Positions 1 through 52,513 of a DNA stretch of 64,000 nt are shown here, in pieces. Location of the stretch: NCBI GenBank assembly GCA_000092065.1, contig CP000582.1; one strand, given 5' to 3'. Each line of letters opens with the position of its first letter. The first letter of the stretch is position 1. This DNA is from Ostreococcus lucimarinus. Lineage: Eukaryota. The notes beneath the pieces were generated by a model. The model saw nothing but the letters and a program-made list of their open reading frames with translations. It was not told the DNA's origin and did no database searches. A program made the translations under genes and the position numbers.

Positions 1-1130
1 CAAATTTACATCTCTCCATGTGTGTCCCATCTTCTCTGCGGTTGTGCACGCATGTTGCCCTAGTAGTAGATTGTTCAATTTTCTAAAATGAACCAATGGT
101 GATGTCAATAAAGCGTGACTCATGAGGGCAGACTTGATCAGTGAAATCATACCAGATGCACCATCGAGGTGCCCTAAATTGGTATGTAAACTACCAAATC
201 CTATGTTTGAAGTGCGAGATGGGTCTTCAAAACAGAATATACGCTGGTATGCACCGATTTCTATTGCGTCGCCAAGTGGCTCACCTAGTCCAGATGCTTC
301 TACGAATGCAACGTCTGCTGGTAGTATGTTAGCATCAAGCAGTGCACGGTGCACTTTGTACTCAATTGCCGGTCCTCGAAGCGCTCTGAGCGAAGCGCCG
401 CCGCCTTTATGTATACACGAGGACCCCAGGAGCGTGACAAGCATAAATTTGCTACTGGTGGCTTTGTATGTACAGATCATGACTGCACCGACGCCTTCAC
501 CTCGCTCAAATCCGTCCGCTTGAGCATCAAATGTTTTGCATCGACCATCAGCTGGAAACATCTGACGTGCAATATGTAAATCTGATAATTGTCTGTGAAG
601 TATGATATTCGAACTCGCCGCTATGGAGGAGTTAGCATATTCAGGATCTGATGGCACATTCACTTTAGAAGAACTCGTAGCGAGATGAATACAAACTAAT
701 CCTGACGCAGACGCGCAGTCGATAGAGATAGATTCGCCTTGAAACCCAAATGTGTGACTTATTCGATTCGACGCAAAAGCATACGTCGATTCGGACATAC
801 CATGCGCAATATTTGATAGCTTATCGTGGGCAGAGCAGCCTGAATCTGTGAACATCACACGGAACGCTTCGTCCCTTGCCACAGAATCACTGTCATTCGT
901 ACATATACCTACGTATACTGATATTTTTTGCTCGTAAACGCGCGTACTCTTGTCTGAATATGGTACATCGGTAACTTCATGGCACGCTTTCAGCAACTCG
1001 CGCTGTTGCGGTTCAAGAAGTGATCGAACATCAGATCGGCCAATTCCAAAAAAGTTTGAGTCGAAAACGTCAAGCTGTCTTAGGAACGAGCCGTGCCTAC
1101 TATATTCGTGATAGACAAAATCCCGCTTTC
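1..1130 (-). other. Terminal KS (module 14) at the window edge; active-site-deficient, KS0-like
   Basis: The N-terminus IDRWDVERIFS...FDSNFFGIG and the NLGHLDGASGMISLIKSAL motif are normal. The active site reads GESISIDCASASGLV instead of DTACSSSL, with Ser at the Cys position. The HGTGT position reads VEASGLGEPLGDAIE, with the His lost. The C-terminus lies off the window. Confidence 0.6.
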
Positions 1131-4100
1131 TACTAATACCGGTGAAAGAAAATATACGTTCAACATCCCAGCGATCTATGGGGATCTTCCTAATTGCATC
1201 TATACCGTTTGCGATTGCGCCACAAAATTGTACCGGATGCATGATATGTTTGCAATCTGCGTCACCCGTGTGCACTGCGATACATGCCACCGAGCTTATG
1301 ATACCATCCTGAACGACGATACGCATGGGCTCTTTGGCAGATGGTTTGCAATCATCTATTTTTTGCCGAAGAGTCGTCTTATGGATAAATTTTGATAACG
1401 ATGTGATTGTTGGATGGTCAAACGCAACTGTTGACGGCAATGGTACGTCAAAGCATATTTCTATGGAACGGGATAGCTCCGTGAGATACATGCTGTCTAA
1501 TCCAGCGTCTATGAATGGCATATTAGCGTCAATAGTGTGTCCGAGAACCCGGCGAACATGATCAGACACAAGGGATTGTGTCTCTGATAACGTGCTGGGA
1601 TGTGTACGATCTGTACACAATAACGTTCGCTTTGAATCCGTTGAAACACCTTGCGACAGTAACGGGATGGACAATTTATCCCAAAGAAACATGTTTGCCA
1701 CTATGGTCGCATCTTGTATCATAACGCTGTTCAAAATCGACAGTATATGTATCCCAACCTTTGTGGGCACTGACCCAATACCAAATCGAGTCAGACTGTC
1801 AAGCTGCAATGCGCTTTGCTTCATCATTCCTGTCAAGTTTACCCACGCTCCCCATTGAACACTAACTTTATCGAGACCTTGATGGTGTGCGTAGTTGCAA
1901 TGTGCATCTAACGAAGAATTGGCAGCGACATAGTTCACTTGCCCAAACGTTCCTAGCAGCACAGAGATCGAGGAGTAATAATCAGTTTGAACTGATAACG
2001 AAGTCGGATCGCGAATACTCGCTAGAGATCCGATTAGTTTCGGAGACACGACGACACGAATCGTATAGGCTGTCTGTTTCGTCGCGATAGCGTCACGAAG
2101 AACACCGGATGCAAAGAATGAACGATTAACTTGAACTCGAGAATTGTGCCATGTATTGTCTGAGTAGTGGCAGTTATCAACGGAATCAACAGTTACTGAA
2201 TGGGATGAGGATCCGTTCCAAACGACAACAGAGTATGAACATCGACCACTTCGGTTCGTCAAGCGAATCAATCGCTGTCCATTCAGCAGTGCTGTGATGT
2301 ACACAAGTTTACCAATTTCACCAGCACCGTGTACTTCTGTTTGATTATTTTTACATTGATTGTTGCGACGCATGTTAGCCGGCGATGAATGAGTCGAACA
2401 TAGATTCGGCGTAAACGCAAGATGACCAACGGCACTGACGTGGCGAAGACGCGCTGTGGTGTTTGAGATACCCGACGGATGTATGCGAGCTGAATCTCCC
2501 GTACATACGGCATATGTTGTATTTTTATTTTCGACACAAAACACTCTTGGTAGTGTCGATAGTGTCAGGTCGGATATATGTTTATGTATACTCGATATTG
2601 GCGATGGAAATATGCGTTTTGTGACGGGTGCTGATTTGCTGAGTACACATAGGTGCTTAGATTCGCTCGAAGTTGTGAGCGCACAAATTGAATGCAAAAT
2701 ATTCACAACGGTTGGCAGTGATCCGCATCTGTGGACGCTGCGGCGGTAGTTGCACAATGTATGCCGAACAGTAGTTGTAGCACAAGTGTCGCCATTGGGT
2801 GCAACATTAACTCGAAGCGGGCTCGCCTCCCAGCGAAGAGCATACAAATATTCAACATTTGGAACACTTGAGCGAGATGAAGACGGCGATGTGGATGTGC
2901 ACAATACAGAGTCAGTTGAAATGTGCAAGAACACCTCTGGTGTAAACGTTGACCAATTTTGACGTGAATAATTGTACTTGAACCTGTGATCACTCAGTAT
3001 AATGCAACACATGAGCGTGTCGTGTTGCGCATATTGAACGGTACATGAACGTCGATATAGCTCAACAGTCCGTACATACGCGACGGAGTTACCGCCGGTG
3101 AACGTATCGAGCAAAGTACATCGCAAACGATGTTGAGGCTTTTCATGGTATTCATTGGATTCAACATGAATATCTGCAGAAGACAAGCCGCCATGCATTT
3201 CGCGAAATTTAACAAACCCTTGTTCTGCATCAGCGTATGCTGCCACTGTGTTCGCATTTAACCCGACGCCGTGTTCACCAGCTCGCACAGTAGCATGTGT
3301 GCTAGCGATAGCGTTGGATTGAGCATCAATTACTTTATATCCCGACCCGTACACGAGAACTTTATTTGATTTTAGATATGCATCTAAAACTTTCGAGGCA
3401 TACACAGTTGAAAGTACTACATTTTTTAGTGAGAGTTCTGTGGTACGATCATCCAAAATCAAACATGTGGCATCAGATGCAACTTGCAACGGTGATGAAG
3501 TAAGAGCATTTACGGTAGCGTTGAAGCGAATCGAAACACAAGCCATAGTGAGTGTCGATAAAGCGACTGTTGCACGCGAGCTTAGCTGTGATATCCAACA
3601 CTCGATGCTGTGTTGCATGACAGAAGCATCTGGCAAGTATTTCATCACGTAATCGCGTCGAACAGATACGTGTGCGTTCGTTCCTTGAAATGCAAACGCG
3701 CTCACTCCTCGGTTTACGGCGTGTGCATCACATTGCCACGCACTTTGCGTTGCCTGGCGTGGAAGAGCGATTCCGCATCGCTCAGCCGTATCTTGATTCA
3801 GAATACTCTGAATGTGGGTGCTGAGCTGGCATAGGTGCACGAGCGCAGGAGTGTTCAAGCGAAATATGCAATCAACAATGCCACACAGACCCATACCGCC
3901 CGAAGCTGGCTCGGTGTGTCCGCAGCGAGTCTTCATTGCTGAAAAAGTAACGACTGGCAATCTTTTGAGGCTGCTAAGTACGGTGCGCGCTGCGCCAACT
4001 TCTATAGGATCCCCCAGAGACGTGCCAGTACCATGAAGCTCTATACCACCAGAAGAGCTGTTATCATTACCAGACTGGAGCATGGTGTGCAAAATCACGC

Positions 4101-7100
4101 TCTGCTGCGATGGGCCATGGGGGGCTGTGAGAGAGCTTGAGCGTCCATCTTGGTTGACAGAAGATGCAGAAGCGTAAAACATGCAGTAGTCGTCGCGCAC
4201 GCCGTCGCTGTGCGGTGTCAAGAGCAGCAAAGTTGATCCTTCTCCTCGAACGTAGCCGTTTGCAGCCATGTCCAGAGTCTTACATCGCCCATCATCTGCC
4301 AGCATCCCCGCAGTTCTAAAAACAATAGTCGTCGTCGGGTTCAGGGTGATGTTCACGCCGCAACATATCATGCTGTCGCATTCTCCCGTGAGCACTGCGT
4401 TACGCGCTACATGTGATCCAACTAAAGACGACGAGCACGCTGTGTCGATGCTTGCACACGTTCCGCGCAGATTGTATGTGAAAGAAATCCGTCCACACGC
4501 AACACTGAGTGAGCCACCAGTTGCTTGAAGCTTGCCGGCACGAGAGGTGATCGCGCTGTAATCAGTGCTAGATATACCGACAACAACGCCACATCCCTCG
4601 CTATATTGGCCGTTTACTGCATGTGCGCGCCCATCTAAGGCGCGCGCTAGAAGGATGCGCTGCTGTGGGTCCACGGCAGTAGCTTCTGCACGTCGCATTG
4701 AAAACAGGGCAATATCAAAATATTCAATGTTATGGAGAAATCTACCAAACCGTATCAGGGCGTAATCGTCGGCTCTAATATCCCACCGATTTTCAGGCAC
4801 ACCACTTACGTCATCCAGTGCGTGCTGATACTGCCCGGGGCTGCTGACTGATGATATGCACACTTGAGCTGAGTATGTGACATCAATAGTACTATTACGG
4901 AGCACCTGTGCACTTCCGTAATTCGATTTTCCATGCGACAGTTCACCCGCCACGGCTTCTGCAAGTGCATATACGCTAGGATGATCAAATACAACCGTCG
5001 ACGGGAGCTGCACAGCGAATTCATCGTTCAGTCTGCTTCGCAATTCAACGGCGCCGAGTGAGTCAAGACCCGCATCCAACAGTGGCTCCTTTGCATCCAA
5101 TGGTCTACCAACCGCATCATTCACTATACTCGCTACACGTCCCGCAATTTCGTCGCCGTGGATCACGCATGATGGTACGCCACGTTCTCCGGCTGATATC
5201 TTGATCTTGAGTTGTGTGCTATTTTGATCGACGTATGGTGCATTTGGCGGGGAAACCGCACTGTGTGATGTAGGTACACTCCATGCATGTAAGCCGGTTG
5301 CACGCAGTGGGCAAACGGCGTAGATTGAGAACATATTTGGAGGTTGAATGAGAGTGCGTAGCGTTCTCAGCGCAGTGTGTGGGTCAATCACTTCTATCCC
5401 TAGAGATCCAAAGTTTCTGGGTGTACCCACTGCAGAACGCACAGCCATGCCATAGGATCCACCCCAGGGTCCCCACTGGAGACTCATGCACCGCCATCCC
5501 ATCGTCGTGCCGAGTTGAGCGAGTGTGTCGAGCAGTGCGTTAGCACCTGCATAGTTAGTTTGACCCGGCGAGCCGAGCAATGCAGCTATGGACGAGAAGA
5601 AAACATGTGTCAAAGACATTTGAGGGAGATTTTCATGACACACCGCTTGTGCACCTTGTGTTTTGTTTGCAAACGCAATCGAGACTGTGGAAAACGTTTG
5701 CTTCATTAGGATTGAATCTTTGAGAACACCGCTCATGTGCAATACCCGACCGACATTTCGCACACTACACGAAACCAAGCGTTCTGTTTCGCTTCTGACA
5801 CAAAGGTTTACACGTTGGATGGTAAGCAGGGATGTAAATTTTGCCGGCGCGATATGTTTTCCTCTTCCGGAACGCCCCACGAGTACGAAGGGTCTATCAC
5901 AGATGGATGCATTCCATTCATAGATAAGCGCTCCGATGCCACCGACACCACCGGTGTAAATGTCGCTGCACGGGTGTAGAAGCGCATTAGAGTCGCACTG
6001 TGCGATGTGCTTTGCCATCGCTCGACGTGGGTCTCGCCACAACATTTTTGCGTGTAAATTCGGACAGACCTTCGATAACGTCGGCGTGCGGACATGGCGA
6101 TTCGATATTGATTTGGCATGCACCTCGTTCGAATCAGAATTTGAATGAAGAAAGTCGGTTGCTTTTGCGTGCACAATACTTGATGCGCCCAAATCAACGC
6201 ACACTAAACGCTGTGACATCTCATGTGCGCCACTCCTGAAGATACCCCACATGGCACCAGCGACCGGAATACATCGACCGATAGAGCTCTGCGTGTCAGC
6301 ACATAGGCGTGGACAGGCTGACACCAGCTCTGTTGCTGTCGTGCGAATCACGCATAGATTGGAACTTGCATGTAAACTCTGCACGGCAAGAGAAGCCACG
6401 CGTGATGCACTTTGCCTCCCCGCAGCTAAATGCGAGTATACGTTCGTGACACCTTCTGTACGGAGAAGCGGTCCTCTGTATGTGTTCTCGGTTTTCCACG
6501 TGGCGCGATATATCATATCGATGGCGTGTCTTCCTTGCCTCCCACCATAATAGCGCTCTGATCCCATCGCTGCAGGCTCTGAGTGAGACGCAACCTTTTT
6601 GCCCAGTAGTTCGTGCATCGCAAGTTGATTTTCCGTCGCTTGCTGTGCTATATGGTCACTCTGCATCTTTTGCGGCGAGAAGCGTGATAGTGCGTGGTCT
6701 CGGGACCGTGCCAACGAAGTTTGGTGTGTGCAGATTTCGAGACTCACTGGCAAGTGCAATTCAAAGCTATCATCACTGAAAGTATTTAGCCTGAGAGCTG
6801 ATAAGCTCTGCACGTGCGCATCGAGCTCTGCGGCAAACGACTGATCTAGTGTTTGCACCTTTTTACTATGAACTTTGAAGTGCAAATCAAGGCTGGATTT
6901 GGAGACGTTTGCGTAATACACTTTCGGCGATGGAGTTCGTTGCGTGAGCATGGTCTGCACTACTTTACAAGACGTGTGCCCTGCTCGTTGTGACGATACG
7001 GAAATACTGCCGGTAGTTTGCGATATTTTGAACGATAATGCATCGTTGCGCCAAGTATCCAACAAACAGGCAGCATGTATTTGCGTGCGACGCACCACGT

Positions 7101-10100
7101 TAACAGTCATTGTGTGGAGTTGCTTTACACAAGTGAGGGTCAGCTCCAGAAAGCTGGTAGCGGGGAGAACCAAGCGGCCACGAACGCAGTGATCGCGATC
7201 TATATGTCGTGTTTTTAATGGTGGGAGTTGAATCCGTAGGCATTCGCTCGTCTCGACTGCGTGCACGAGCCGCAGGCCAAAGGCAGCATGTGATATCCAA
7301 CACTCGATGCTGTGTTGCATGACAGAAGCATCTGGCAAGTATTTCATCACGTAATCGCGTCGAACAGATACGTGTGCGTTCGTTCCTTGAAATGCAAACG
7401 CGCTCACTCCTCGGTTTACGGCGTGTGCATCACATTGCCACGCACTTTGCGTTGCCTGGCGTGGAAGAGCGATTCCGCATCGCTCAGCCGTATCTTGATT
7501 CAGAATACTCTGAATGTGGGTGCTGAGCTGGCATAGGTGCACGAGCGCAGGAGTGTTCAAGCGAAATATGCAATCAACAATGCCACACAGACCCATACCG
7601 CCCGAAGCTGGCTCGGTGTGTCCGCAGCGAGTCTTCATTGCTGAAAAAGTAACGACTGGCAATCTTTTGAGGCTGCTAAGTACGGTGCGCGCTGCGCCAA
7701 CTTCTATAGGATCCCCCAGAGACGTGCCAGTACCATGAAGCTCTATACCACCAGAAGAGCTGTTATCATTACCAGACTGGAGCATGGTGTGCAAAATCAC
7801 GCTCTGCTGCGATGGGCCATGGGGGGCTGTGAGAGAGCTTGAGCGTCCATCTTGGTTGACAGAAGATGCAGAAGCGTAAAACATGCAGTAGTCGTCGCGC
7901 ACGCCGTCGCTGTGCGGTGTCAAGAGCAGCAACGTTGATCCTTCTCCTCGAACGTAGCCGTTTGCAGCCATGTCCAGAGTCTTACATCGCCCATCATCTG
8001 CCAGCATCCCCGCAGTTCTAAAAACAATAGTCGTCGTCGGGTTCAGGGTGATGTTCACGCCGCAACATATCATGCTGTCGCATTCTCCCGTGAGCACTGC
8101 GTTACGCGCTACATGTGATCCAACTAAAGACGACGAGCACGCTGTGTCGATGCTTGCACACGTTCCGCGCAGATTGTATGTGAAAGAAATCCGTCCACAC
8201 GCAACACTGAGTGAGCCACCAGTTGCTTGAAGCTTGCCGGCACGAGAGGTGATCGCGCTGTAATCAGTGCTAGATATACCGACAACAACGCCACATCCCT
8301 CGCTATATTGGCCGTTTACTGCATGTGCGCGCCCATCTAAGGCGCGCGCTAGAAGGATGCGCTGCTGTGGGTCCACGGCAGTAGCTTCTGCACGTCGCAT
8401 TGAAAACAGGGCAATATCAAAATATTCAATGTTATGGAGAAATCTACCAAACCGTATCAGGGCGTAATCGTCGGCTCTAATATCCCACCGATTTTCAGGC
8501 ACACCACTTACGTCATCCAGTGCGTGCTGATACTGCCCGGGGCTGCTGACTGATGATATGCACACTTGAGCTGAGTACGTGACATCAATAGTACTATTAC
8601 GGAGCACCTGTGCACTTCCGTAATTCGATTTTCCATGCGACAGTTCACCCGCCACGGCTTCTGCAAGTGCATATACGCTAGGATGATCAAATACAACCGT
8701 CGACGGGAGCTGCACAGCGAATTCATCGTTCAGTCTGCTTCGCAATTCAACGGCGCCGAGTGAGTCAAGACCCGCATCCAACAGTGGCTCCTTTGCATCC
8801 AATGGTCTACCAACCGCATCATTCACTATACTCGCTACACGTCCCGCAATTTCGTCGCCGTGGATCACGCATGATGGTACGCCACGTTCTCCGGCTGATA
8901 TCTTGATCTTGAGTTGTGTGCTATTTTGATCGACGTATGGTGCATTTGGCGGGGAAACCGCACTGTGTGATGTAGATACACTCCATGCATGTAAGCCGGT
9001 TGCACGCAGTGGGCAAACGGCGTAGATTGAGAACATATTTGGAGGTTGAATGAGAGTGCGTAGCGTTCTCAGCGCAGTGTGTGGGTCAATCACTTCTATC
9101 CCTAGAGATCCAAAGTTTCTGGGTGTACCCACTGCAGAACGCACAGCCATGCCATAGGATCCACCCCAGGGTCCCCACTGGAGACTCATGCACCGCCATC
9201 CCATCGTCGTGCCGAGTTGAGCGAGTGTGTCGAGCAGTGCGTTAGCACCTGCATAGTTAGTTTGACCCGGCGAGCCGAGCAATGCAGCTATGGACGAGAA
9301 GAAAACATGTGTCAAAGACATTTGAGGGAGATTTTCATGACACACCGCTTGTGCACCTTGTGTTTTGTTTGCAAACGCAATCGAGACTGTGGAAAACGTT
9401 TGCTTCATTAGGATTGAATCTTTGAGAACACCGCTCATGTGCAATACCCGACCGACATTTCGCACACTACACGAAACCAAGCGTTCTGTTTCGCTTCTGA
9501 CACAAAGGTTTACACGTTGGATGGTAAGCAGGGATGTAAATTTTGCCGGCGCGATATGTTTTCCTCTTCCGGAACGCCCCACGAGTACGAAGGGTCTATC
9601 ACAGATGGATGCATTCCATTCATAGATAAGCGCTCCGATGCCACCGACACCACCGGTGTAAATGTCGCTGCACGGGTGTAGAAGCGCATTAGAGTCGCAC
9701 TGTGCGATGTGCTTTGCCATCGCTCGACGTGGGTCTCGCCACAACATTTTTGCGTGTAAATTCGGACAGACCTTCGATAACGTCGGCGTGCGGACATGGC
9801 GATTCGATATTGATTTGGCATGCACCTCGTTCGAATCAGAATTTGAATGAAGAAAGTCGGTTGCTTTTGCGTGCACAATACTTGATGCGCCCAAATCAAC
9901 GCACACTAAACGCTGTGACATCTCATGTGCGCCACTCCTGAAGATACCCCACATGGCACCAGCGACCGGAATACATCGACCGATAGAGCTCTGCGTGTCA
10001 GCACATAGGCGTGGACAGGCTGACACCAGCTCTGTTGCTGTCGTGCGAATCACGCATAGATTGGAACTTGCATGTAAACTCTGCACGGCAAGAGAAGCCA

Positions 10101-13100
10101 CGCGTGATGCACTTTGCCTCCCCGCAGCTAAATGCGAGTATACGTTCGTGACACCTTCTGTACGGAGAAGCGGTCCTCTGTATGTGTTCTCGGTTTTCCA
10201 CGTGGCGCGATATATCATATCGATGGCGTGTCTTCCTTGCCTCCCACCATAATAGCGCTCTGATCCCATCGCTGCAGGCTCTGAGTGAGACGCAACCTTT
10301 TTGCCCAGTAGTTCGTGCATCGCAAGTTGATTTTCCGTCGCTTGCTGTGCTATATGGTCACTCTGCATCTTTTGCGGCGAGAAGCGTGATAGTGCGTGGT
10401 CTCGGGACCGTGCCAACGAAGTTTGGTGTGTGCAGATTTCGAGACTCACTGGCAAGTGCAATTCAAAGCTATCATCACTGAAAGTATTTAGCCTGAGAGC
10501 TGATAAGCTCTGCACGTGCGCATCGAGCTCTGCGGCAAACGACTGATCTAGTGTTTGCACCTTTTTACTATGAACTTTGAAGTGCAAATCAAGGCTGGAT
10601 TTGGAGACGTTTGCGTAATACACTTTCGGCGATGGAGTTCGTTGCGTGAGCATGGTCTGCACTACTTTACAAGACGTGTGCCCTGCTCGTTGTGACGATA
10701 CGGAAATACTGCCGGTAGTTTGCGATATTTTGAACGATAATGCATCGTTGCGCCAAGTATCCAACAAACAGGCAGCATGTATTTGCGTGCGACGCACCAC
10801 GTTAACAGTCATTGTGTGGAGTTGCTTTACACAAGTGAGGGTCAGCTCCAGAAAGCTGGTAGCGGGGAGAACCAAGCGGCCACGAACGCAGTGATCGCGA
10901 TCTATATGTCGTGTTTTTAATGGTGGGAGTTGAATCCGTAGGCATTCGCTCGTCTCGACTGCGTGCACGAGCCGCAGGCCAAAGGCAGCATGTGATATCC
11001 AACACTCGATGCTGTGTTGCATGACAGAAGCATCTGGCAAGGATTTCATCACGTAATCGCGTCGAACAGATACGTGTGCGTTCGTTCCTTGAAATGCAAA
11101 CGCGCTCACTCCTCGGTTTACGGCGTGTGCATCACATTGCCACGCACTTTGCGTTGCCTGGCGTGGAAGAGCGATTCCGCATCGCTCAGCCGTATCTTGA
11201 TTCAGAATACTCTGAATGTGGGTGCTGAGCTGGCATAGGTGCACGAGCGCAGGAGTGTTCAAGCGAAATATGCAATCAACAATGCCACACAGACCCATAC
11301 CGCCCGAAGCTGGCTCGGTGTGTCCGCAGCGAGTCTTCATTGCTGAAAAAGTAACGACTGGCAATCTTTTGAGGCTGCTAAGTACGGTGCGCGCTGCGCC
11401 AACTTCTATAGGATCCCCCAGAGACGTGCCAGTACCATGAAGCTCTATACCACCAGAAGAGCTGTTATCATTACCAGACTGGAGCATGGTGTGCAAAATC
11501 ACGCTCTGCTGCGATGGGCCATGGGGGGCTGTGAGAGAGCTTGAGCGTCCATCTTGGTTGACAGAAGATGCAGAAGCGTAAAACATGCAGTAGTCGTCGC
11601 GCACGCCGTCGCTGTGCGGTGTCAAGAGCAGCAACGTTGATCCTTCTCCTCGAACGTAGCCGTTTGCAGCCATGTCCAGAGTCTTACATCGCCCATCATC
11701 TGCCAGCATCCCCGCAGTTCTAAAAACAATAGTCGTCGTCGGGTTCAGGGTGATGTTCACGCCGCAACATATCATGCTGTCGCATTCTCCCGTGAGCACT
11801 GCGTTACGCGCTACATGTGATCCAACTAAAGACGACGAGCACGCTGTGTCGATGCTTGCACACGTTCCGCGCAGATTGTATGTGAAAGAAATCCGTCCAC
11901 ACGCAACACTGAGTGAGCCACCAGTTGCTTGAAGCTTGCCGGCACGAGAGGTGATCGCGCTGTAATCAGTGCTAGATATACCGACAACAACGCCACATCC
12001 CTCGCTATATTGGCCGTTTACTGCATGTGCGCGCCCATCTAAGGCGCGCGCTAGAAGGATGCGCTGCTGTGGGTCCACGGCAGTAGCTTCTGCACGTCGC
12101 ATTGAAAACAGGGCAATATCAAAATATTCAATGTTATGGAGAAATCTACCAAACCGTATCAGGGCGTAATCGTCGGCTCTAATATCCCACCGATTTTCAG
12201 GCACACCACTTACGTCATCCAGTGCGTGCTGATACTGCCCGGGGCTGCTGACTGATGATATGCGTACTTCAATCGAACGAGTTGGGCTGTCAATTGGCAG
12301 TTCTGTTTCTGTTCTTTTTATTTCGTTCTCAGCCCCTAGGATCAATCCTGCTATACTCTTGACCGTGGGGTAATCGAATATGAGGGTACTCGGAAGGTCG
12401 GTAATTGTAAAAGCATCTGCTATCGCGTTACGACTCTCAACGGCACCAAGCGAATCAACACCGGCCTCCATTATCGCGGAGTCAGCAGTGAGTTCATGAC
12501 CAGAGACTTCCTTGAAAATTTGCAATAGTTTTTGTACTACCAGTACTTCTGTGTCTTTGGCAGAGGCCGTATTCTTGCTGTCTACGTTCCCCGCTTGATT
12601 GAAGTTTTGCTTCTTTCCGTACAGGAAGCGATTTTTCACTGCGAATGACATGAACCTACTCCAGTTTAGTCCGGTCGCTATCAACTGCTGCGATAATAGT
12701 GTAAAATTGTGATGTAGTATGGAGTGATCGAGACGCGTCTGGATTATAGACATAGCAACTGATGGTTGTATGTATTGAAGACCAACTCGTTCCATACGAC
12801 GAGAAATACCGTCAGAATTAGCCATTCCATCACCAGCGAGCCATGCACCCCATTGAATTGACTCGTTTACCATGCCACGTTCTTTGCAAGTTGAACTCCA
12901 TTGATCTAACCAACTGTTTGCATACGTATAGTTACTTTGACCAATTGAAGCAATGGTCGCCGCCAGGGATGAGAAATTTAGAAATGTTTTCACCAGGTAG
13001 GCATCTTTTAGCGCACTATGCAATCGTTTTACCCCACTCACTTTCGGTGCAGACACTTCAGCCAAGTGAGCTGATGTCTGATCGCAGATCAACGCATCTC

Positions 13101-16100
13101 TTAGAACTCCACTAGTGTGAAATATTCCCACAGAGTCAGACAAAGACAACGATCTGAAAATTGTCGAGAATTCGGAGCATGATATGTCTGCGTTCTCCAG
13201 TGTGAAGTGCAAGCGGCTATCCCTTGGCAATCTCATTATTCCATTATTATGACCATTACGTGATAGAAGTATAACACTATTTGCACCAATACCCAGCAAC
13301 CACCGTGTGAGCAGTATTCCAATCGCTCCAGTTCCACCCGTGACTAATTGATGACCAGACATCACAGTTTTGTGATACACGACGACTTTTCCAATGTGGG
13401 ACGCTCTCGTCATTTCCCTCATGCTTTGACGGATGAACCGAAATTCGTTGCTCAAACATATCGATGGCTGTATCAAACCAGCACACATAAACAACCCCAG
13501 TAATGATAAACGAAAACTGAGTTCAGCAATAGACTGGTGATCAATAGCCTTGACTTCATAAGTTGCTTTATAGTTTTCTTTTTCGAACGCGTCGGCTGAC
13601 CAAATACCGCGCTTTGATAGCTCTAAAAATGTAGCGTGTACATTCAATATCGACAAGGAGGCCGCAATCATGCCAGGTGATGTAAGCGTATTTAAGACTA
13701 CGTCGACGGGACAACTTCGTGATAAAGAGCTTAAAAATACTGACTGCGAAAACTTAGTCGATCGTGAGTTGCTCATGCATGGAATACCAAGGTATCGCAT
13801 CAAATGCCGTTTCTTCACATTACTCGATGTTCCAGAGAGCGAGTCACCCATCATAGAACATATCGATTTTATCGCAAGTCCAACGCCACCCGTCGTCCCA
13901 TGTACGAGAAGATGAGCTGGAGTGGTTTTAAGTCGACGAATGGAGCTAAAACATTCGTCGACGGTGAGAAAAACTGTCGGAATCGCCGAAGCTTCGATAA
14001 AATTTACTCGCGGCGGTTTTATGCTAAATAATGAACGGTGTACGTAAGCTACGTCACCGAGACAACCAGTCGTCAAGCCAAATATAGCATCTCCGTGTGA
14101 ATGAGAGTACACATCGTCAATTATGCCTGAAAAGTCTGTACCCGGTGGTTCTGTCACCCCAGGGTACATATCTAGAATATTCAAAACGTCCCTGAAGTTC
14201 AGCCCTACGGCAAGAATCCGCGTTCTAACAAATGGCTTTGATACTGTGATTCCACTATCCAAAGCTATACTCGGTACGGGAGTCAGATCTTTTATCGCAC
14301 CTCTGGGACTTGGTTGAAGTACAAAGTTATTCAATGGTACTTTTCGGCATCCGTGTATCATTGGAACATATCTAGCTCGAGCCAAATATTGAGACTGAAT
14401 TGGTTCTGCACGACTTTCACATTCTGCCTTCTTAAAGTGGCTCGACGCTCGCTTTAGCGATAGTGGAGAGTCGCTGTGCACGTCCAAGTGATAAGTTTGA
14501 TTGAGATCAGCTACAGAGACCATCGATATTGTGTGTATCACAGATGCTGAAATGACATTTGACATATTTTCTCCCGCGCGACCAACTGGTGTGCTTGATG
14601 TGGCGAGCCCAACAAGCCGTATTGACGCATGCACATTTTGCATCATCGCAGCGTAAGACGGGGCATATCGGTATGAAGTCGATGTGTTAGTATCCATACT
14701 GCGTCCCAGATTGTATGAGTGTGGGGTTTGCGGACAAACGTGCTTGATATGATGCACTGCGCACCACATTAGTGCATATAGCACACTTGATTGCACTTTC
14801 TTGTTCAAGTTTTCTCTTTCGAAAGCACGATTCATAGTACTCAAAGGTTTGCATTGTAAACGGCGCAATAGTGCAAGATTTGATGTCGTATGATTACTCT
14901 CGGGTGCATCTTTCTTCTTTGCTGAGGACGAGCTCTCAAACTGGTGCTCTAAAGGCAGCTGCTGCAGTTGAAATATATGTATCACTGCTGGTACGTGAAC
15001 CACGTCGTTATTTTCTTTGTCCATCAAGCAATACAAAATGTGCATGGAGCAATCAATCAGATGTGCTGCTCCGACGGTCGCGCATGCTGAGCCGACGTAC
15101 TTTGACATCTTTGTCTTAAGAGCACCACGCCGTGAACGAATGCAATGCCCAAGCTGCTGGAAAGGTTCCCTGATATTGGAACCATCATTTGTTTTTCGGA
15201 ATTTGGAGGTTGTTGCGCTCTCGCCAGAACGCAACATGAGTCGCATAGTGCTATCTCGATATGTTACCACTGATATCGTATCAAGCTGCTTCAGTACGAT
15301 TGGAATCAGCAAGATTGTCTTCATTTGAAGCACGCTATCAATGAGCAAGTCGTCCAAGGGAATTATCGGAATAATCAATGATGCAGCTGCGGGTAGAACG
15401 GGCGTGTGGTTCACGCTGTGGTCGTGTAAGCTAGACCAAGCAGGTCTACATATATTGACGGTGAAAACCGCTCTCGACGCTGATTTAAAGACACTTATAA
15501 GTTGCACATTTGAATACAAAGTACCAACACCAGCATGGAACATTTGCGAACAAAGTAAACGCGCTCTTGTCGAGCAACAACGATGCGTCAACTTCGATGG
15601 AATCGCGCGGATAATTGTGTGCGCATTAACGCCACTCATTCCAAAAGAAGAAGAAGCCGTAAGCTCGATTTGCGGCGCTGTTGTCATCGCTCGTGCAATG
15701 TGAACATTCCCTTCGCTGGCCACGTGTGTGAATACACTAAGATGTGGATTCAGATTACGACAAAGGCGCATTCCAAAATTAACAGCGTGCGTTGAGCAGA
15801 CTATAGAATCGAGAATGCCAACTACTCCCGCGCTACCTTCGGTATGGCCTAGTGAACTTTTACTGGTTCCAATGAGAAGAAATGAAAAGCATGATTGAAG
15901 TTGCATTAGGCTACTGAGCTCGATCGAGTCTCCAAGCGAGGTTCCAGTTCCATGGAGTGAAAGATAGCAGCTACGACTCGACGCATTTTCAATGCGTAGC
16001 AACGCGACTTGGATCAACTTCTGCTGGCTTGGTCCGTTGGGAGCCGTGAACGAACTTGAGCGCCCATCTTGGTTCACAGTGCACGCCGATAACACAAAAT

Positions 16101-19100
16101 CGTGTCGGCTTTCATATCTATGGGCTGGCTGGACTGGTTCTAAATGTAAAAGACCAAATGCTTCTCCTCTTCCATATCCGTCCGCTCCAGCATCTAAGGT
16201 TTTGCATCGGCCATCGTAAGCAATAGCACCGAGAGATGACAAAGTCACGAAGGTATCCGGAATCAGTATACATTGCGTGCCGCCAGACAACGTAGACGAA
16301 GCATGTGAGCCATCCATACTTGCACACGCTAAGTGCGCCGCTACCATTGACGAGGAGCATGCCGTATCTATCGCGATGCTCGGCCCATTCATTCCGAAGG
16401 TGAACGATGGTCTGCTAGCGAGGAACGAAATACCATTACCTGTACCTGCGTACGCATAGAACGCCCATTTTGTCGATCTCAGAATGAACTGGTAGTCATT
16501 CCACATTACGCCAATAAATACCCCCATATGATGATATATTTTCGTGTCAGATACACCATGCAAGCATTCGATGCAACAATTCAACAAATGACGTTGCTGC
16601 GGGTCCATGCATATCGTTTCTTGAGGTGTCAAGTGGAATATAGTGTTGTCAAAGTAAAAGATGTCGCGCAACAACACAGCAAATCGCGTAGATCCACTGA
16701 GAAGCTCAACGTCAAAACGAGTAGAAAGCCGTCTTTGCAATTCAGCACCAGTGACCAGTGACGTCCGCAAGCTTTGCAAATTCTTTATGTTGTTTGGATA
16801 TCGAAGTGAAATGTTTGATATTTTGTGAACATTCGATCCTGTTCCTTCGTGAGGATTCAATCCCAGTGATTTCGATTTCAAATCGAGTGAAATCACTGAA
16901 TCTGAAGTTGTACGCGCGTCCGTGAATGAGAAGATTGCTTTGCTTAGCTCATGCACTGTTGGATAATCGAACATTGATATAATTGGCAAGTCTATCTGGA
17001 ATTTGGCGTTTATAGACGATCGAAGGTCAGCAAGCGCCAAGCTGTCAAGTCCAAGCTGCATAATAGGCTGCGCATCATCAATATATGTATACGTTTCCAT
17101 GTCGATCGATGACATTATCGCGTGTCGTAGAAAATCGGCAATCGTATCAAAAGAATATGAACTAGTTTTTGTCTGAATTGAATCTGATACGATATTCGGT
17201 GTGGAAGGGCTAGTGAGCGCAGGCAGACGCGACGCTATGTATGTGGGTACCGTACAGGCATTCAACATAGAAAGGTTTAGCATAAACAAGCCGTGGGCGA
17301 CGTTTATAGATGCTAATAAGCGCTTCTCCAAATGTGCGTCCAGGCGGGCCATTCCAAAGACGGCGTCCGTCCATGCACCAAATTGGACACTGGAACTAGA
17401 GAATCCGCTGTTGAACATCAACTTCACACATTCATCTAACACGTTATTTGATATTGAATAATTCATTTGACCGAATGAATAAATAAAGCCAGTTATTGAC
17501 GAGCACGCGATTGATCGTTGAGCTTGTATATTTGCTAAGGCGTGGTCACGAACATATCCTAGTACTTTTGCAGAGGTTACAGTAGACATCGTTTCTGGAG
17601 TCTGTCGGAGCACAACAGCATCACACAATGACCCACTGGCGTACACAAATGTATTTATTCTATTGCGATCGATTGAAGTCAAGCCTTCTCGTGCAATTCC
17701 GCGATCACTCTTAAATGATCGAACTATGCTCTGTCCAAACCTCGAATGCACTCGGAGTTTTGCAATATGAGCGCTCCAACCACGACGACTCGAGAGGGAA
17801 AGATTGCTAGCGTCGGAGTGTAGAAGAAATAACGAAAGACACGACCCGATAGCGCCAGTCGCACCGGATATCGAAACGCCATTTCTTAAACTAGTCCCGT
17901 AATATGAATTATTTTCACAAATAAAAATATTTGGAATTCGACTAGGAATCACGTGTACCTCGTCATCATTTTGCAACTTGCCGATACCTGGGAGGTGTTT
18001 TGTGGCACTGATACCCATAGCTTCAATTTTTAGATACGTGGCGGCGATTTCACACGTCTTCATTTTCGAGTAAATGTTGGAATTTTTTGGTAACGGTGAG
18101 CTGTACATTGACCATGAATATGTGTGACGCGGTATGTGAGTGTCAATCCGATATGAACGCGCCGAAACATGAGATATGACTGCCAAAGCTGTTCGATTGA
18201 GACAAGATGAATCGGCTGACGCCCACGGAAAGTACTGAAAACTATGCCCATGTAAGTCACTAAGATGTTTGCTTGCGCGATAACGCACAAGGTTCCACAG
18301 AGTGTTTTTATGCACCTTGTGGATGGAAGCGCGGATACGAGAGCTTTTCATTCGAAACTTGATCACCGAGCCAATGCTAAAATTATCTGCATACATGGAG
18401 TAATCTGCTTCGGACAGTGGCTCTCGTGATATTTTAGTAGTCAATGGGATCTTTACGTACGTTGTCCTGTCTATGACATCTGTAAAGGCATTTGACAAAT
18501 ACAGCTCTCGCAAACCAGTAGGTATGTACGATGAAAATGACTTGGGTGAGTGCAGAGCGGCGCAGGATTGAAAGGTGTTATCAAGCGACGAGCTGTGGTA
18601 ATCGTGGAAGAAATCTATTTTGATTGAACTACGGCTAGTGCACACCATAGTATTATTATCGAATACCAGTGGGTTAGCATATTCGTGTGTTTGATATACT
18701 TTTGTACTTCGTGTACATTTCCAAAGGCATTTAAAAAACAAGATACTTTCGGAGTACATTTCCAGTGCGCTAGACGTCGTATCTATACGAATATCATTGA
18801 TTTGTGCCTTTCCGTTGGCCGGCAAAATGACCCGCGCAGTTGGGATAGTCACGTCACACATATTGCGAATTTTGGTTTCAACGAACATGCGAACTGCAGA
18901 TGAGCAGAGTAACAACATACTCGCAGCTGGTAAGATTGCTTTCCCGTGAACAGAGTGATCAAATAACCCGGTATTATTAGTGCTGATGATGTTACCTTGC
19001 ATGACAACATGTGTGCTCTTTGCAACGGTCAATGAATGAAGACGTTGAGGCAAAGTCGGAGTTATCCAAATACGATCTCTCTGCAGCAAACGCATGGACC

Positions 19101-22100
19101 ATCGGATCGGGAGATTCGTCGCGCGTTTTATCCGATTCTGCAATATGGCGTGCGCGTTTGTGCCTTGGAATGCAAACGCGCTGACAGATGCATGAGTTTC
19201 TGATGAAAAATGTGCGTTCAACAACGGGACGATTGCACGAGGTGAACGCATGGAGTTCTTATGTGCTTGGTTGAATGTCTCGGATATATGTGTGTTGATA
19301 CACCTCAACAATCGGATTGAGATGCACTTACTAGATGAGACACTCTCAGAAGCTTTCAAGATATTGATGGAACCTGATGCTGGTTCCGCATGCCCGCAGT
19401 GTGACTTATTCGCCTGTAAGGCGACAGTATATGAACTATATGAGTATGCACTCATAGTAGCACTCAACTCAATCGGATCACCTAGAATTGTACCAGTGCC
19501 GTGCAGTTGAATAGTTTCGACCGAAACGTCCCTGCGTTGTGTCGCTAATTTCATCACGGCTTCCTGTGCTAGCCCACTGGGAGCAGTGAGCGAACTAGAG
19601 CGACCATCTTGATTCGCTGCGCTACCGTGGAGGATTATCGAGTTTGATACCAACGTATGCCTCCACAATAGAATATGCATCATACCCGCTTCTGCCCGTA
19701 CGTATCCATCTGCAGACGCATCAAGGGTTTTACAATGGCCGTCTGCTGAAAGCATTTTGGACATCTCAAATATCAAGGAAGAACGTTCCAGTAGCGTGAG
19801 ATTTATCCCCCCTAGGCAACACCCACGCATGTGAGTGTCCAACGTTCGATGAAACATGGTGACACAAATCAAAGCTGACGAGCAAGCTGTATCGACACAT
19901 ACACTTCTACCACTTAGCGCAAAGGTGTATGAAATACGTCCACTTGCAACACTGGCGATAGTACCGGTACCAAGGAAATTACTTTCTGAGTACGCACACA
20001 GAGTTGCATACTCGGCGCTTGAAATTCCAACACCTACCCCCCAGCTGTTGTCCATGTCTTTCACGACTGATACACAATTATCCACCAACATCAGCACAAT
20101 GCGATGTTGTGGATCGATGTAAAGAGCTTCCTGTCGACCAACATTGAAATAACTACAATCGAATCGATCAGGAGATTCGATAGTGACTCCGCATCGTACT
20201 GACTTTCCTATTGTGTGGTCGACATCAGTAGACCATCTTGTTCCCATATGATTGTCAGAGTTTGGCAAGAGAGAGCTAAGAATAGGAATGCTGTGAATTG
20301 AATCGTCGTTGCTCGCGGCTTCAAGCATGAGATTCGATTGCAAACTCGGAACTGAATCCTGGTAAGACAACAATGTAGCGAGGTATGCTGAAATGTCTCG
20401 AACGGTTGGATAGTTGAATACCAACGTCACTGGCAAATCCGAATTGAGGGCGCTTGAGATTTGATCACGAATGTCCACGGACACTATAGAATCTATACCC
20501 ATTTCCACCAGCGATACGTCGTCTTGTACACGCATTCCCATTACGGATGAAACAATCGCACTCACACTTAGACGTATGTCCTCGAAACTTCTCATTGGCA
20601 TTTTCACTGGGATGTCTTTGCCAGCGTCGCGCTCAACAAAGCCCCTTTCATTTTTAGAAAGATTCGTGTGCTCATGGAGTTTTCGAGCACGTGGACGTCT
20701 TTGATGCGGTAGCTCCTTGAACTTGTTGACTAGAACGATCGATAGCCCTTTCGATGAGAGAATCTTATCCAGCATACAAAGTGCCGATTTTTCATCCACG
20801 CTACCAACGCCTAAATCGTGGAGTCTTTGCAATACTGTGGGCGTCGACATACCGTCAGTACAATCCCAAGCACCCCATTGTATACTTTTCCACACATTAC
20901 CACACTGTGTCTGGTTTTGTGCGAATGAATCAGTCATGGCATTAGCTGCAGCATAATTTGCTTGTCCGGTGGATTTTAGGACATGTGATGTCGATGAAAA
21001 GACCAACCATGCCCGTAAAGCAGTGAGACTGAAGGCGCATTGAAGTTTTTCAGCGGCTCGGTGCTTGGGCGCGCAGACAGTTCTAATCTTATTCGGATTT
21101 TGGTGTACACTCAAGCCATCATATAACAAACCCGAAGCATGTAGCACATACTCGCACGCAAGATTTGGTGCTGCAAAAGTTGCCGAAAAGTCAGCCCAAC
21201 TCGCGACATCAATTTTGTGCACAGATATCTCCATAAAGGGACATGAATGGTTGAGATCAAATCGTGCGCTCCGACCGCTTCTCGATGCACATATGAGCTC
21301 ACCCGTGCGTGGCTTGTTAGTGTATATGTGGCGAGCAATAATGGTGGAGAGTGCGCCTAGTCCTCCGCTCATCAAGATGCCGCCATCGAACTGCATCGTA
21401 TCAGTGGAGAATGTACTATCTAGTATTCTTGGGAGGTAACGCGAAGATATTGTCGCTTTTACGCGCTGCGCCTCAAGAAAGCGCACAGATACTACTTTGT
21501 GTGAAATTGTCGTTTGTTCCGTGCCCAAACTGTCGATGTATGAGCACTGCGGGATAGTATGGTCTCTACAACCCATATTTCTTGTAATGTCGTAAGACCC
21601 CATTGATTTGATGTAGTACGGAGTACTTATTTCTTCGCACGCAATCTTGCATACTGTCTCAACTGCAGAAGATATACACGGGGTATGTGTGGTACTTAGG
21701 CCCAATTCGGCAACCTGAACATGTGTCGCTACATTCTGTAAAGCACAAAAAGACGATGAAATCAGTTGCGTCGTGTTCACACCGCTTTCGAATTTGAGCG
21801 ATGCGCGCTGAATTGGATTGGTACAGAGTATAGTAGAGAAGTTTATAGCATCTTTTCTTCCCATGGTGTCCTTTCGATAAAGCGAGTTGGTATAGATAAC
21901 TTTTATTTTTGCTTGACGCTTAAGCTTAATATCTGCGTCGAACCTCGCTCGTCGAAAACTCGCGCATGAAAGGCTTACGGTGAAATTACGAGTCGCGTTC
22001 TGCATGCAATGGTCTGATTCACCGCAATTTTTCAATGAGATACGACAACTCAACATTGAATTGCCAGAACAGTTCGAAATTGTGGCCATTTTGACACCTA

Positions 22101-52257: not shown

Positions 52258-52513
52258 GACCGCCTGTTGATAATCGTAGGAAATTTTTTACACAAGTGAC
52301 GCGATATGGTGCGATGCGATCTGGCGCGCATAGTACGTTTCTGTACTTGTGTAGCATAACGATGTGACAACTGTGCTACTTGATAGGAAATACTTCGGAA
52401 GTACGTAAGCGGGCGAAACTTTTATAGTTCGTGTGTGCCTTAGGAAGCATATTGTCTGCAAGGAAATGATTTAATGTGCTCGTTTTACACTATCTATACC
52501 AAGTAAATGCTAT

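What the first reader, a model, noticed from the sequence alone, without database searches (positions are those of the whole stretch)
1..1130. Edge KS domain lacks the catalytic Cys and the HGTGT His (KS0-like)
By alignment, DTACSSSL reads DCASASGL (Ser in the Cys position) and HGTGT reads ASGLG, while NIGH, DPQQR and the overall fold motifs are kept.

Non-elongating KS0 domains are a hallmark of trans-AT systems, where they hand intermediates to modifying or offloading domains. This one may mark the approach to the C-terminal processing end of the synthase.
Basis: seen in the sequence. Interest (0 to 1): 0.6.

Follow-up and report, generated by a model that had tools for sequence, protein, structure and literature searches.

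The report
Known inactive terminal ketosynthase, Ostreococcus PKS
The window edge encodes the last ketosynthase domain of a giant polyketide synthase of the green picoalga Ostreococcus lucimarinus; it really has lost its catalytic cysteine and histidine, but this domain in this gene was already described as non-elongating in 2015.

Summary
Window 1-1233 (minus strand) encodes KS14, the last of 14 ketosynthase domains in one stop-free frame of 17,429 codons (window 1-52287). KS1-13 have the canonical Cys/His/Lys/His. KS14 has Ser (DCASASGL), Ser (EASGLGE), His (SLHTNLGH) and His.

It is not a sequencing error. Two independent metagenome contigs carry the same residues, and every orthologue found in Bathycoccus and other relatives shares them.

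A flanking gene matches XP_001416379.1 exactly, so the source is Ostreococcus lucimarinus. The gene is OluPKS3. Shelest et al. [quoted passage not shown] The finding is therefore already known.

What I add:
- The gene ends 774 codons past the window edge.
- The P-loop domain is a CurM/Ols-type sulfotransferase (E=1e-52 to PDB 4GBM).
- That domain is followed by a thioesterase-like region without its nucleophile serine.
- No carrier domain is detectable after KS14.
- The "shifted cysteine" proposed in 2015 is not conserved.
- The S-S-H-H site is remodelled but strongly conserved, and was found only in this algal clade among 682 KS domains checked.

KS14 most likely acts as a non-condensing adaptor for sulfonation and offloading. 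Its exact role is inferred, not shown.

The parts
1..1233 (-). KS14, the terminal non-elongating ketosynthase (KS0) domain of OluPKS3. About 45 further residues of the fold lie beyond window position 1.
   Evidence: PF00109 at window 466-1233 (E=2e-32) and PF02801 at 85-432 (E=2e-18). The remainder ('GTSSFGYGGSMAHV') was read in L006.
709..711 (-). Ser codon (TCT) at the position of the catalytic Cys (I-D-C-A-S-A-S-G-L, window 697-723).
   Evidence: Alignments; codons. Ser is present in 8 of 8 clade members that cover the site.
715..717 (-). Cys codon (TGC) two residues upstream of the catalytic position. This is the 'shifted cysteine' of Shelest et al.
   Evidence: It is Thr in P0004 and P0010, so it is not conserved in the clade.
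292..294 (-). Ser codon (TCT) at the position of the HGTGT His (E-A-S-G-L-G-E).
   Evidence: Ser is present in 11 of 11 clade members that cover the site.
169..186 (-). H-T-N-L-G-H. The conserved Lys is replaced by His (CAT 184-186) and the second catalytic His is retained (CAC 169-171).
367..414 (-). Clade-specific loop IHKGGGASLRALRGPA, which replaces the canonical VNQDGRSSSLTAPNGP.
   Evidence: It is nearly invariant in the KS0 clade.
1..39 (-). Clade-specific insertion AEKMGHTWRDVNL, absent from canonical KS domains.
1384..1557 (-). ACP13, the last detectable carrier domain (motif DAGLDSM). It is the presumed carrier of the final beta-hydroxyacyl chain.
   Evidence: PF00550, E=1e-9.
1228..4872 (-). 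Module 13: KS-KR-ACP without a dehydratase. KS13 is at 3847-4800 and KR13 at 1843-2325.
   Evidence: Pfam. The DH motif HCVRGRLVLP of modules 11 and 12 is absent.
1..52287 (-). The OluPKS3 open frame within the window: 17,429 codons, first Met at 52255-52257, 14 KS domains and no AT domain.
   Evidence: The architecture is identical to Shelest et al. supplementary file 2.

Best explanation
Window 1-1233 (minus strand) encodes KS14, the last ketosynthase domain of OluPKS3. OluPKS3 is an AT-less polyketide synthase of about 18,200 residues in Ostreococcus lucimarinus.

Shown:
- KS14 has the KS family signature but carries Ser/Ser/His/His where KS domains have Cys/His/Lys/His.
- The substitutions are conserved across genera.
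- KS14 follows a KS-KR-ACP module that has no dehydratase.
- It is followed, beyond the window edge, by about 150 residues with no detectable carrier domain, then a CurM/Ols-type sulfotransferase, then a thioesterase-like region that lacks the nucleophile Ser.

Inferred:
- KS14 cannot perform decarboxylative condensation, because the His and Lys are missing.
- It cannot hold the chain as a thioester, because the Cys is missing.
- It therefore most likely works as a non-condensing adaptor. It would dock ACP13 and bind or position the beta-hydroxyacyl chain for sulfonation by the adjacent sulfotransferase and for offloading. It would not relay the chain to a further carrier.
- The remodelled pocket is conserved, which suggests it still binds a ligand.
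For: - Identity of the gene. The flanking ORF is an exact match to O. lucimarinus XP_001416379.1. The domain order equals OluPKS3 in Shelest et al. supplementary file 2, and Table S3 lists KS14 as DCASASG/SGLGE.
- Substitutions.
- Conservation. All clade members (Bathycoccus L001, P0002-P0010, P0045, P0185, P0264) share S/S/H/H. Within +-6 residues of the four catalytic positions, 63% of columns are at least 90% conserved, against 29% elsewhere. Twenty sites are fixed differently from canonical KS domains.
- Independent assemblies carry the same sequence.
- No AT domain is present.
- Module 13 lacks the DH motif.
- Tail. The stop is 774 codons past the edge. The sulfotransferase matches CurM ST 4GBM at E=1.4e-52 and Ols ST 4GOX at 2.8e-48. 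No PP-binding hit is found even at E<=1. Bathycoccus has the same layout.
- Precedent for KS0 domains as obligatory partners of modifying enzymes: the oocydin-type case cited in PMC9600693.
Against: - No experiment bears on the function.
- The region between KS14 and the sulfotransferase shows a weak, in-register resemblance to an ACP in one comparison (hhalign E=0.017; P0007 scores 11 bits). A cryptic carrier is therefore not excluded, although a broader profile gave no signal.
- Strong conservation of polar residues (Ser, Ser, His, His, and the loop IHKGGG) could equally mean a new catalytic activity rather than binding.
- The structure predictions were too poor to examine the pocket.
Confidence: 0.55

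Rival explanations
1. KS14 has acquired a new function as a Ser/His acyl-enzyme, either a hydrolase or an acyltransferase. It would take the finished, possibly sulfated, chain from ACP13 onto the Ser at the former Cys position and release it. This would replace the dead thioesterase-like domain.
For: - The active-site loops are remodelled to a new consensus and then frozen across genera.
- A new His replaces the Lys next to the retained His.
- The C-terminal thioesterase-like region has lost its nucleophile Ser in all six algal sequences: G, G, D, G, P and A at that position.
- The tetrad S-S-H-H occurs only in this clade among 682 KS domains scanned.
Against: - No KS of the elongating (KAS I/II-like) type is known, to my knowledge, to act as a serine hydrolase.
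- The pocket geometry could not be examined (AF2 mean pLDDT 39).
- The assignment of the C-terminal region as a thioesterase is itself weak (hhalign E=0.003, probability 10%).
Confidence: 0.2
2. KS14 is a classical KS0 transacylase that uses the Cys displaced two residues upstream (DCASASG). It would pass the chain to a downstream carrier or to another PKS subunit. This is the suggestion of Shelest et al. 2015.
For: [quoted passage not shown]
- It is also present in Bathycoccus, P0002, P0006, P0185 and P0264.
Against: - Two clade members have Thr there (P0004 DTASASSL, P0010 DTASSSSL). The Ser at the true catalytic position is invariant.
- No carrier domain is detectable downstream.
- The position two residues before the nucleophile precedes the nucleophile elbow. 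From general knowledge of the fold it is not expected to point into the pocket; this was not tested here.
Confidence: 0.1
3. KS14 is a decayed relic with no function beyond filling space, that is, a linker or dimerisation scaffold.
For: - Every catalytic residue needed for condensation is gone.
- The neighbouring ACP-like and thioesterase-like regions also look degenerate.
Against: - Former active-site loops are the best conserved parts of the domain across Ostreococcus, Bathycoccus and GC-rich relatives (63% against 29% of columns).
- The two metagenome variants differ by one synonymous and one conservative change only.
Confidence: 0.12
4. The substitutions are a sequencing or assembly error, or the gene copy is a pseudogene.
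For: A single C-to-G change would turn TCT into TGT (Cys).
Against: - The His-to-Ser change needs two substitutions.
- At least 20 further clade-specific fixed differences exist.
- Independent metagenome contigs carry identical residues.
- The same residues occur in other genera and in the published genome models.
- The frame is open for 18,203 codons.
Confidence: 0.01
5. KS14 is a KSS/KSQ-type decarboxylating loading domain, like the KSS of the nystatin loading module.
For: Ser replaces the catalytic Cys, as in KSS domains. Six S-H-K-H domains were seen among 682 KS domains, most of them at protein N-termini.
Against: - Those domains keep both His residues and the Lys needed for decarboxylation; KS14 lacks the first His and the Lys.
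- KS14 is the last KS of the synthase, not the first.
Confidence: 0.02

Closest known systems
'Clade 6' terminal KS0 domains of prasinophyte PKSs: OluPKS3-KS14, OtaPKS1-KS9 and MicPKS2-KS9 (Shelest et al. 2015, BMC Genomics 16:1015, PMC4661987)
   Same: It is the same domain of the same gene. The motifs DCASASG/SGLGE, the terminal position, and the architecture '...KS-KR-ACP-KS-P-loop NTP hydrolase' all match.
   Different: Nothing differs in the object itself. My analysis refines the description in five ways.
- The 'hydrolase-like' IPR027417 domain is a CurM-type sulfotransferase.
- The shifted Cys is not conserved.
- The Lys is also replaced, by His.
- A thioesterase-like tail without its Ser follows.
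- The clade also includes Bathycoccus, which that paper's table listed without a type I PKS.
Non-elongating KS0 domains of bacterial trans-AT PKSs
   Same: Both are KS-fold domains in an AT-less assembly line. Both lack the HGTGT His and sit next to modifying or offloading functions.
   Different: - Bacterial KS0 domains keep the Cys and the Lys; about 27 C-x-K-H domains were seen among 682.
- They pass the chain to a following ACP.
- KS14 has Ser and His at those positions and no detectable following ACP.
- It forms its own long-branched algal clade.
CurM / olefin synthase (Ols) terminal module KS-AT-KR-ACP-ST-TE of cyanobacteria
   Same: - The sulfotransferase is 36-47% identical, with the PAPS-binding loop SSPRSGSTLL and the VDKSP motif intact.
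- The preceding module delivers a beta-hydroxyacyl-ACP.
- A region aligning with the N-terminal third of the thioesterase follows.
   Different: - An inactive KS and about 150 residues without a recognisable ACP lie between the last ACP and the sulfotransferase.
- The thioesterase-like part lacks the GxSxG Ser, and its C-terminal His region cannot be aligned.
- CurM His62 (numbering from memory) is Tyr or Asn in the algal sequences.
- An en-bloc origin of KS14 from such a module is not supported by the tree.
KSQ / KSS loading-module domains (for example the nystatin NysA KSS)
   Same: The nucleophile Cys is replaced, by Ser in KSS domains.
   Different: Loaders keep His, Lys and His and sit at the N-terminus. 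KS14 lacks the first His and the Lys and sits at the C-terminal end.

Membership tests
Shelest et al. 2015 'clade 6' terminal KS0 of chlorophyte PKSs | The same gene and organism (OluPKS3 of O. lucimarinus), and the terminal KS of the synthase. | tested here: met
   The neighbouring ORF is an exact match to XP_001416379.1. There are 14 KS domains, and the domain order is identical to supplementary file 2. KS14 is the last KS before the stop.
Shelest et al. 2015 'clade 6' terminal KS0 of chlorophyte PKSs | Motifs DCASAS[GA] and SGLGE in place of DTACSSS and HGTGT. | tested here: met
   Table S3.
Shelest et al. 2015 'clade 6' terminal KS0 of chlorophyte PKSs | Followed by a P-loop (IPR027417) domain. 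| tested here: met
   The L006 tail contains Sulfotransfer_3 (E=2e-29) and matches CurM ST (E=1e-52). Sulfotransferases belong to the P-loop NTPase superfamily (general knowledge).
Bacterial trans-AT KS0 (non-elongating KS) | A KS-fold domain within an AT-less modular PKS. | tested here: met
   PF00109 and PF02801 are found. No AT hit occurs in any of the 15 segments.
Bacterial trans-AT KS0 (non-elongating KS) | Loss of the HGTGT His. | tested here: met
   Ser is at that position.
Bacterial trans-AT KS0 (non-elongating KS) | Retention of the catalytic Cys for transthioesterification. | tested here: not met
   Ser is present in all clade members.
Bacterial trans-AT KS0 (non-elongating KS) | A downstream ACP that receives the chain. 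| tested here: inconclusive
   There is no PP-binding hit at E<=1. hhalign gave E=0.017 in one profile and 0.25-0.45 in another. AF2 confidence in this region was below 50.
Bacterial trans-AT KS0 (non-elongating KS) | Phylogenetic placement among bacterial trans-AT KS clades. | not tested
   No reference set of bacterial trans-AT KS0 domains was included. In my NJ tree KS14 forms a separate long branch.
CurM/Ols-type sulfotransferase-thioesterase offloading module | A sulfotransferase homologous to CurM ST with the PAPS-binding loop. | tested here: met
   4GBM E=1.4e-52 and 4GOX E=2.8e-48; SSPRSGSTLL and VDKSP are conserved. This lies outside the window, in L005/L006.
CurM/Ols-type sulfotransferase-thioesterase offloading module | A beta-hydroxyacyl-ACP substrate made by a KR-containing module without a DH. 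| tested here: met
   Module 13 has KS, KR and ACP only, and the DH His motif is absent.
CurM/Ols-type sulfotransferase-thioesterase offloading module | An ACP directly upstream of the sulfotransferase. | tested here: not met
   KS14 and about 150 residues without a carrier signature lie between ACP13 and the sulfotransferase.
CurM/Ols-type sulfotransferase-thioesterase offloading module | A C-terminal thioesterase with a nucleophile Ser and a catalytic His. | tested here: not met
   The homology is only weak (hhalign E=0.003, 82 columns). The GHSxG Ser is replaced in all six algal sequences, and the His region cannot be aligned. There is no Pfam hit.
KSQ/KSS loading decarboxylase | An N-terminal (loading) position, with both His residues and the Lys retained. 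| tested here: not met
   KS14 is terminal and its tetrad is S-S-H-H.

The most novel reading that the evidence does not exclude
The S-S-H-H ketosynthase clade of Mamiellophyceae may be a re-purposed thiolase-fold serine enzyme rather than a dead KS0. It would release or transfer the sulfated polyketide chain, taking over from a thioesterase that has lost its nucleophile. That would be a new chain-release logic, KS*-ST-pseudoTE, derived from the CurM/Ols terminal-alkene machinery.
Probability: 0.15. Interest if true: 0.65.

Novelty: already known. Interest (0 to 1): 0.27.

Why it matters
As given, the finding re-discovers a published annotation. Its value is as confirmation that the first-stage reader can spot catalytic-residue loss from raw sequence.

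The context has some residual interest. The products of the giant prasinophyte PKSs are unknown. Recognising the terminal 'P-loop' domain as a CurM/Ols-type sulfotransferase, preceded by a KR-only module, predicts a beta-sulfated intermediate or product, or a terminal alkene. That gives a concrete handle for metabolomics in Ostreococcus and Bathycoccus, which are abundant marine phytoplankton.

KS14 has a strongly conserved but re-wired active site, and the thioesterase-like domain lacks its serine. How the chain is released is therefore an open and testable question.

Tried and rejected
1. AlphaFold2 on KS14 with a 15-sequence alignment gave mean pLDDT 39. The model was unusable and no fold search was run on it.
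2. AlphaFold2 on orthologue P0043 (linker + sulfotransferase + C-terminus, 28 sequences) was confident only in the sulfotransferase. The linker and the C-terminal region scored below 50, so there is no verdict on ACP-like or thioesterase-like folds.
3. I tested the hypothesis that KS14 came en bloc with the sulfotransferase from a cyanobacterial CurM-like module.
   - KS14 scores 152-205 bits against the KS domains of 12 CurM-type proteins that were fetched through their sulfotransferase, against 53-106 bits for its own sibling KS domains.
   - A bootstrapped NJ tree nevertheless groups KS14 with the CurM-like KS domains in only 1 of 200 replicates, and with the algal siblings against all bacterial KS domains in 174 of 200.
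   - The hypothesis is not supported. Long-branch attraction is possible, so the question stays open.
4. ACP-likeness of the KS14-to-sulfotransferase linker gave one weak in-register signal. The signal disappeared with a broader profile. The result is inconclusive.
5. I looked for accessory PKS genes downstream of the stop in L006. I found a Toc75/Omp85 gene and two ORFs without Pfam hits.
6. Literature searches for a link between Ostreococcus or Micromonas PKSs and CurM or sulfotransferases found none in the library.
7. The first NJ script timed out.

Full report
WHAT IS THERE

The minus strand of window 1-52287 is a single stop-free frame of 17,429 codons that runs off the left edge. A phmmer search with the last 429 residues finds 14 KS domains in it.

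Pfam on module-sized pieces shows repeated KS-(DH)-KR-ACP modules, one KS-ACP-C module and one module with weak ER-like hits. No acyltransferase domain appears anywhere.

The last piece (window 1-1560, minus strand) contains an ACP (window 1384-1557) and a KS. PF00109 covers 466-1233 and PF02801 covers 85-432. It begins about 100 nt right of the stated 1130 and continues beyond position 1.

THE OBSERVATION

I aligned KS14 with the 13 sibling KS domains, with bacterial KS domains and with solved structures, CurL 4MZ0 and 7ZMA.
- Ser stands at the catalytic Cys (IDCASASGL; TCT at 709-711).
- Ser stands at the HGTGT His (EASGLGE; TCT at 292-294).
- The second His is retained (NLGH).

KS1-13 are all canonical. 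KS8 reads HSTGT.

- HGTGT corresponds to SGLGE, not ASGLG.
- 'DPQQR' reads EPQQR.
- The Ser codon is TCT, not TCG.

NOT AN ERROR

- His to Ser needs two base changes.
- Two metagenome contigs from different samples (L005, L006) encode the same KS14. They differ by one synonymous and one Ala/Val difference only, and both differences lie away from the motifs.
- Orthologues share D[CT]AS[AS]S, EASGLGEP, IHKGGGAS[LM]RA and HTNxGHLDG. They come from Bathycoccus prasinos (L001, 47% identity), from two longer representatives (P0185 at 62%, P0264 at 56%) and from about ten environmental fragments.
- Twenty sites are fixed to one residue in this clade and to a different residue in canonical KS domains.
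- Within +-6 residues of the four catalytic positions, 63% of columns are at least 90% conserved, against 29% elsewhere.
- Among 682 KS domains in the 150 best-scoring proteins of a 1.84-billion-protein search, 633 have C-H-K-H. About 27 have C-x-K-H (classical KS0). Eleven have S/Q-H-K-H, mostly N-terminal loaders. S-S-H-H occurs only in the two algal clade members.

SOURCE AND PRIOR KNOWLEDGE

The neighbouring 914-residue RPE65-GST ORF (window 52517-55258, minus strand) is an exact match to XP_001416379.1 of Ostreococcus lucimarinus CCE9901.

Shelest et al. 2015 (BMC Genomics 16:1015, PMC4661987) describe OluPKS3 with exactly the domain order I found. [quoted passage not shown] Their text states the following:
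[quoted passage not shown] - The domains precede a hydrolase-like domain and may serve in release or transfer.

The finding and its interpretation are therefore already published for this very domain.

WHAT FOLLOWS LEFTWARDS

L005 and L006 are nearly identical to the window over the last 8 kb (4-9 mismatches). They continue the frame for 2,322 nt to a stop. The protein is thus about 18,193 residues from the first Met.

The 774-residue tail contains four parts:
- the rest of the KS fold (GTSSFGYGGSMAHV);
- about 150 residues with no Pfam carrier hit, even at E<=1;
- a sulfotransferase that matches CurM ST (4GBM, E=1.4e-52) and the Synechococcus olefin synthase ST (4GOX, E=2.8e-48), with the PAPS loop SSPRSGSTLL and VDKSP intact;
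- about 290 residues without any Pfam hit.

Bathycoccus has the same layout.

About one hundred bacterial homologues of the sulfotransferase are ACP-ST-TE proteins. In a joint alignment the algal C-terminal region lines up with the first third of their alpha/beta-hydrolase thioesterase. The GHSLG nucleophile Ser is replaced in all six algal sequences (TRGLG, GVGIG, TRDSG, TTGFG, ARPST, ADAFG), and the C-terminal His region cannot be aligned. Profile-profile support for this is weak but in register (hhalign E=0.003, 82 columns).

Module 13, just upstream of KS14, shares its KS with modules 11 and 12 but lacks their DH motif. It keeps KR and ACP. The last extension should therefore leave a beta-hydroxyacyl-ACP, which is the substrate type of CurM-like sulfotransferases (established knowledge of CurM/Ols).

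HOW IT MOST LIKELY WORKS

Shown:
- KS14 lacks every residue needed for decarboxylative condensation and for thioester acylation.
- It is conserved.
- It sits between the last ACP and a sulfotransferase.

Inferred:
- KS14 is a non-condensing adaptor. It docks ACP13 and binds or positions the chain for sulfonation and offloading.
- Bacterial KS0 domains that are required partners of on-line modifying enzymes are a precedent (cited in PMC9600693).

Rivals:
- KS14 is a re-purposed Ser/His acyl-enzyme that releases the chain. This is attractive because the thioesterase-like domain has no nucleophile and the KS14 pocket residues are frozen.
- KS14 is a transacylase that uses the displaced Cys. This is weakened because that Cys is Thr in two clade members, P0004 and P0010, and because no downstream carrier is detectable.
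- KS14 is a functionless relic. This is weakened by the conservation pattern.
- Sequencing error and a KSS/KSQ-type loader are excluded.

ORIGIN

KS14 scores higher against the KS domains of cyanobacterial CurM-type proteins (152-205 bits) than against its own siblings (53-106 bits). A bootstrapped NJ tree nevertheless does not join KS14 to them (1 of 200 replicates). It places KS14 as a long branch on the algal side (174 of 200). An en-bloc bacterial origin of the KS-ST cassette is therefore not supported. Long-branch artefacts are possible, so the question remains open.

FAILED ATTEMPTS

- Both AlphaFold2 runs were uninformative for the regions of interest. KS14 gave pLDDT 39. In the tail only the sulfotransferase was confident.
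- The ACP-likeness of the linker is inconclusive.
- No accessory PKS genes lie downstream.
- No paper in the searchable library links these algal PKSs to CurM-type sulfotransferases.

VERDICT

What I add:
- the sulfotransferase identity of the 'P-loop' domain;
- the pseudo-thioesterase tail;
- the non-conservation of the shifted Cys;
- the Lys-to-His change;
- membership of Bathycoccus in the clade;
- the uniqueness and conservation of the S-S-H-H tetrad.

Interest is low to moderate.

Noticed in passing
L006:11783-12700 (+); outside the window, about 550-1500 nt beyond window position 1: The domain annotated in 2015 as 'P-loop NTP hydrolase / hydrolase-like' at the end of OluPKS3 is a CurM/Ols-type sulfotransferase (E=1e-52 to PDB 4GBM). 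I found no paper in the library that says so for prasinophyte PKSs. It predicts a sulfated or terminal-alkene polyketide.
   Followed up: yes
L006:12700-13549 (+); also L001:13130-14116: The last ~290 residues align weakly with the thioesterase of bacterial ACP-ST-TE proteins. The GxSxG serine is replaced in all six algal sequences (G, G, D, G, P and A). There is no Pfam hit and the AF2 confidence is low.
   Followed up: partly
window 39886-50493 (-) and 4873-12276 (-): The gene contains near-identical tandem module duplications. Modules 1-3 repeat with a 3,609-nt period (modules 1 and 2 are 95.6% identical). Modules 11 and 12 are 99.6% identical, and module 13 shares only their KS. A 360-kb metagenome contig calls a product of only 16,671 residues, consistent with one collapsed repeat in that assembly.
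   Followed up: partly
window 4001-12000 versus the rest of the gene: G+C is 51-52% over the duplicated modules 11 and 12, against about 44-46% in most of the gene. Similar bumps occur at 42-44 kb and 46-48 kb within the duplicated modules 1-3.
   Followed up: no
window 28954-30207 (-): An NRPS-type condensation domain (PF00668, E=1e-22) sits in a KS-ACP-C module, with no adenylation domain anywhere in the window. It is also listed in the published architecture.
   Followed up: no
window 23053-23067 (-): KS8 reads HSTGT instead of HGTGT. Its Cys and both His residues are retained.
   Followed up: no
window 52517-55258 (-): A carotenoid-cleavage dioxygenase (RPE65) is fused to an N-terminal-type GST domain at its C-terminus. 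The ORF ends only about 260 nt upstream of the first Met of the PKS frame, on the same strand. It is annotated as 'carotenoid dioxygenase plastidic fusion protein' in O. lucimarinus.
   Followed up: partly
window 60105-62738 (+): An 877-residue ORF carries Tc5-transposase HTH and DDE_1 domains (a pogo-like transposon). Its length differs between metagenome contigs of the same region (819 and 711 residues).
   Followed up: no
L001 (Bathycoccus prasinos OZ116933.1), locus 2-14116 (+): In this Bathycoccus assembly the PKS is split into several short gene models (3092, 507 and 552 residues), although one frame is open for at least 4,705 codons. The table in Shelest et al. 2015 listed Bathycoccus without a type I PKS, so that species' PKS appears to have been missed or fragmented by annotation.
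   Followed up: partly
L006:11840-11860 (+), the sulfotransferase motif QELYLLNF: The residue aligned with CurM ST His62 (numbering recalled from the CurM ST literature) is Tyr or Asn in all algal sulfotransferases. The Glu two residues before it is kept. The consequence for activity is unknown.
   Followed up: no
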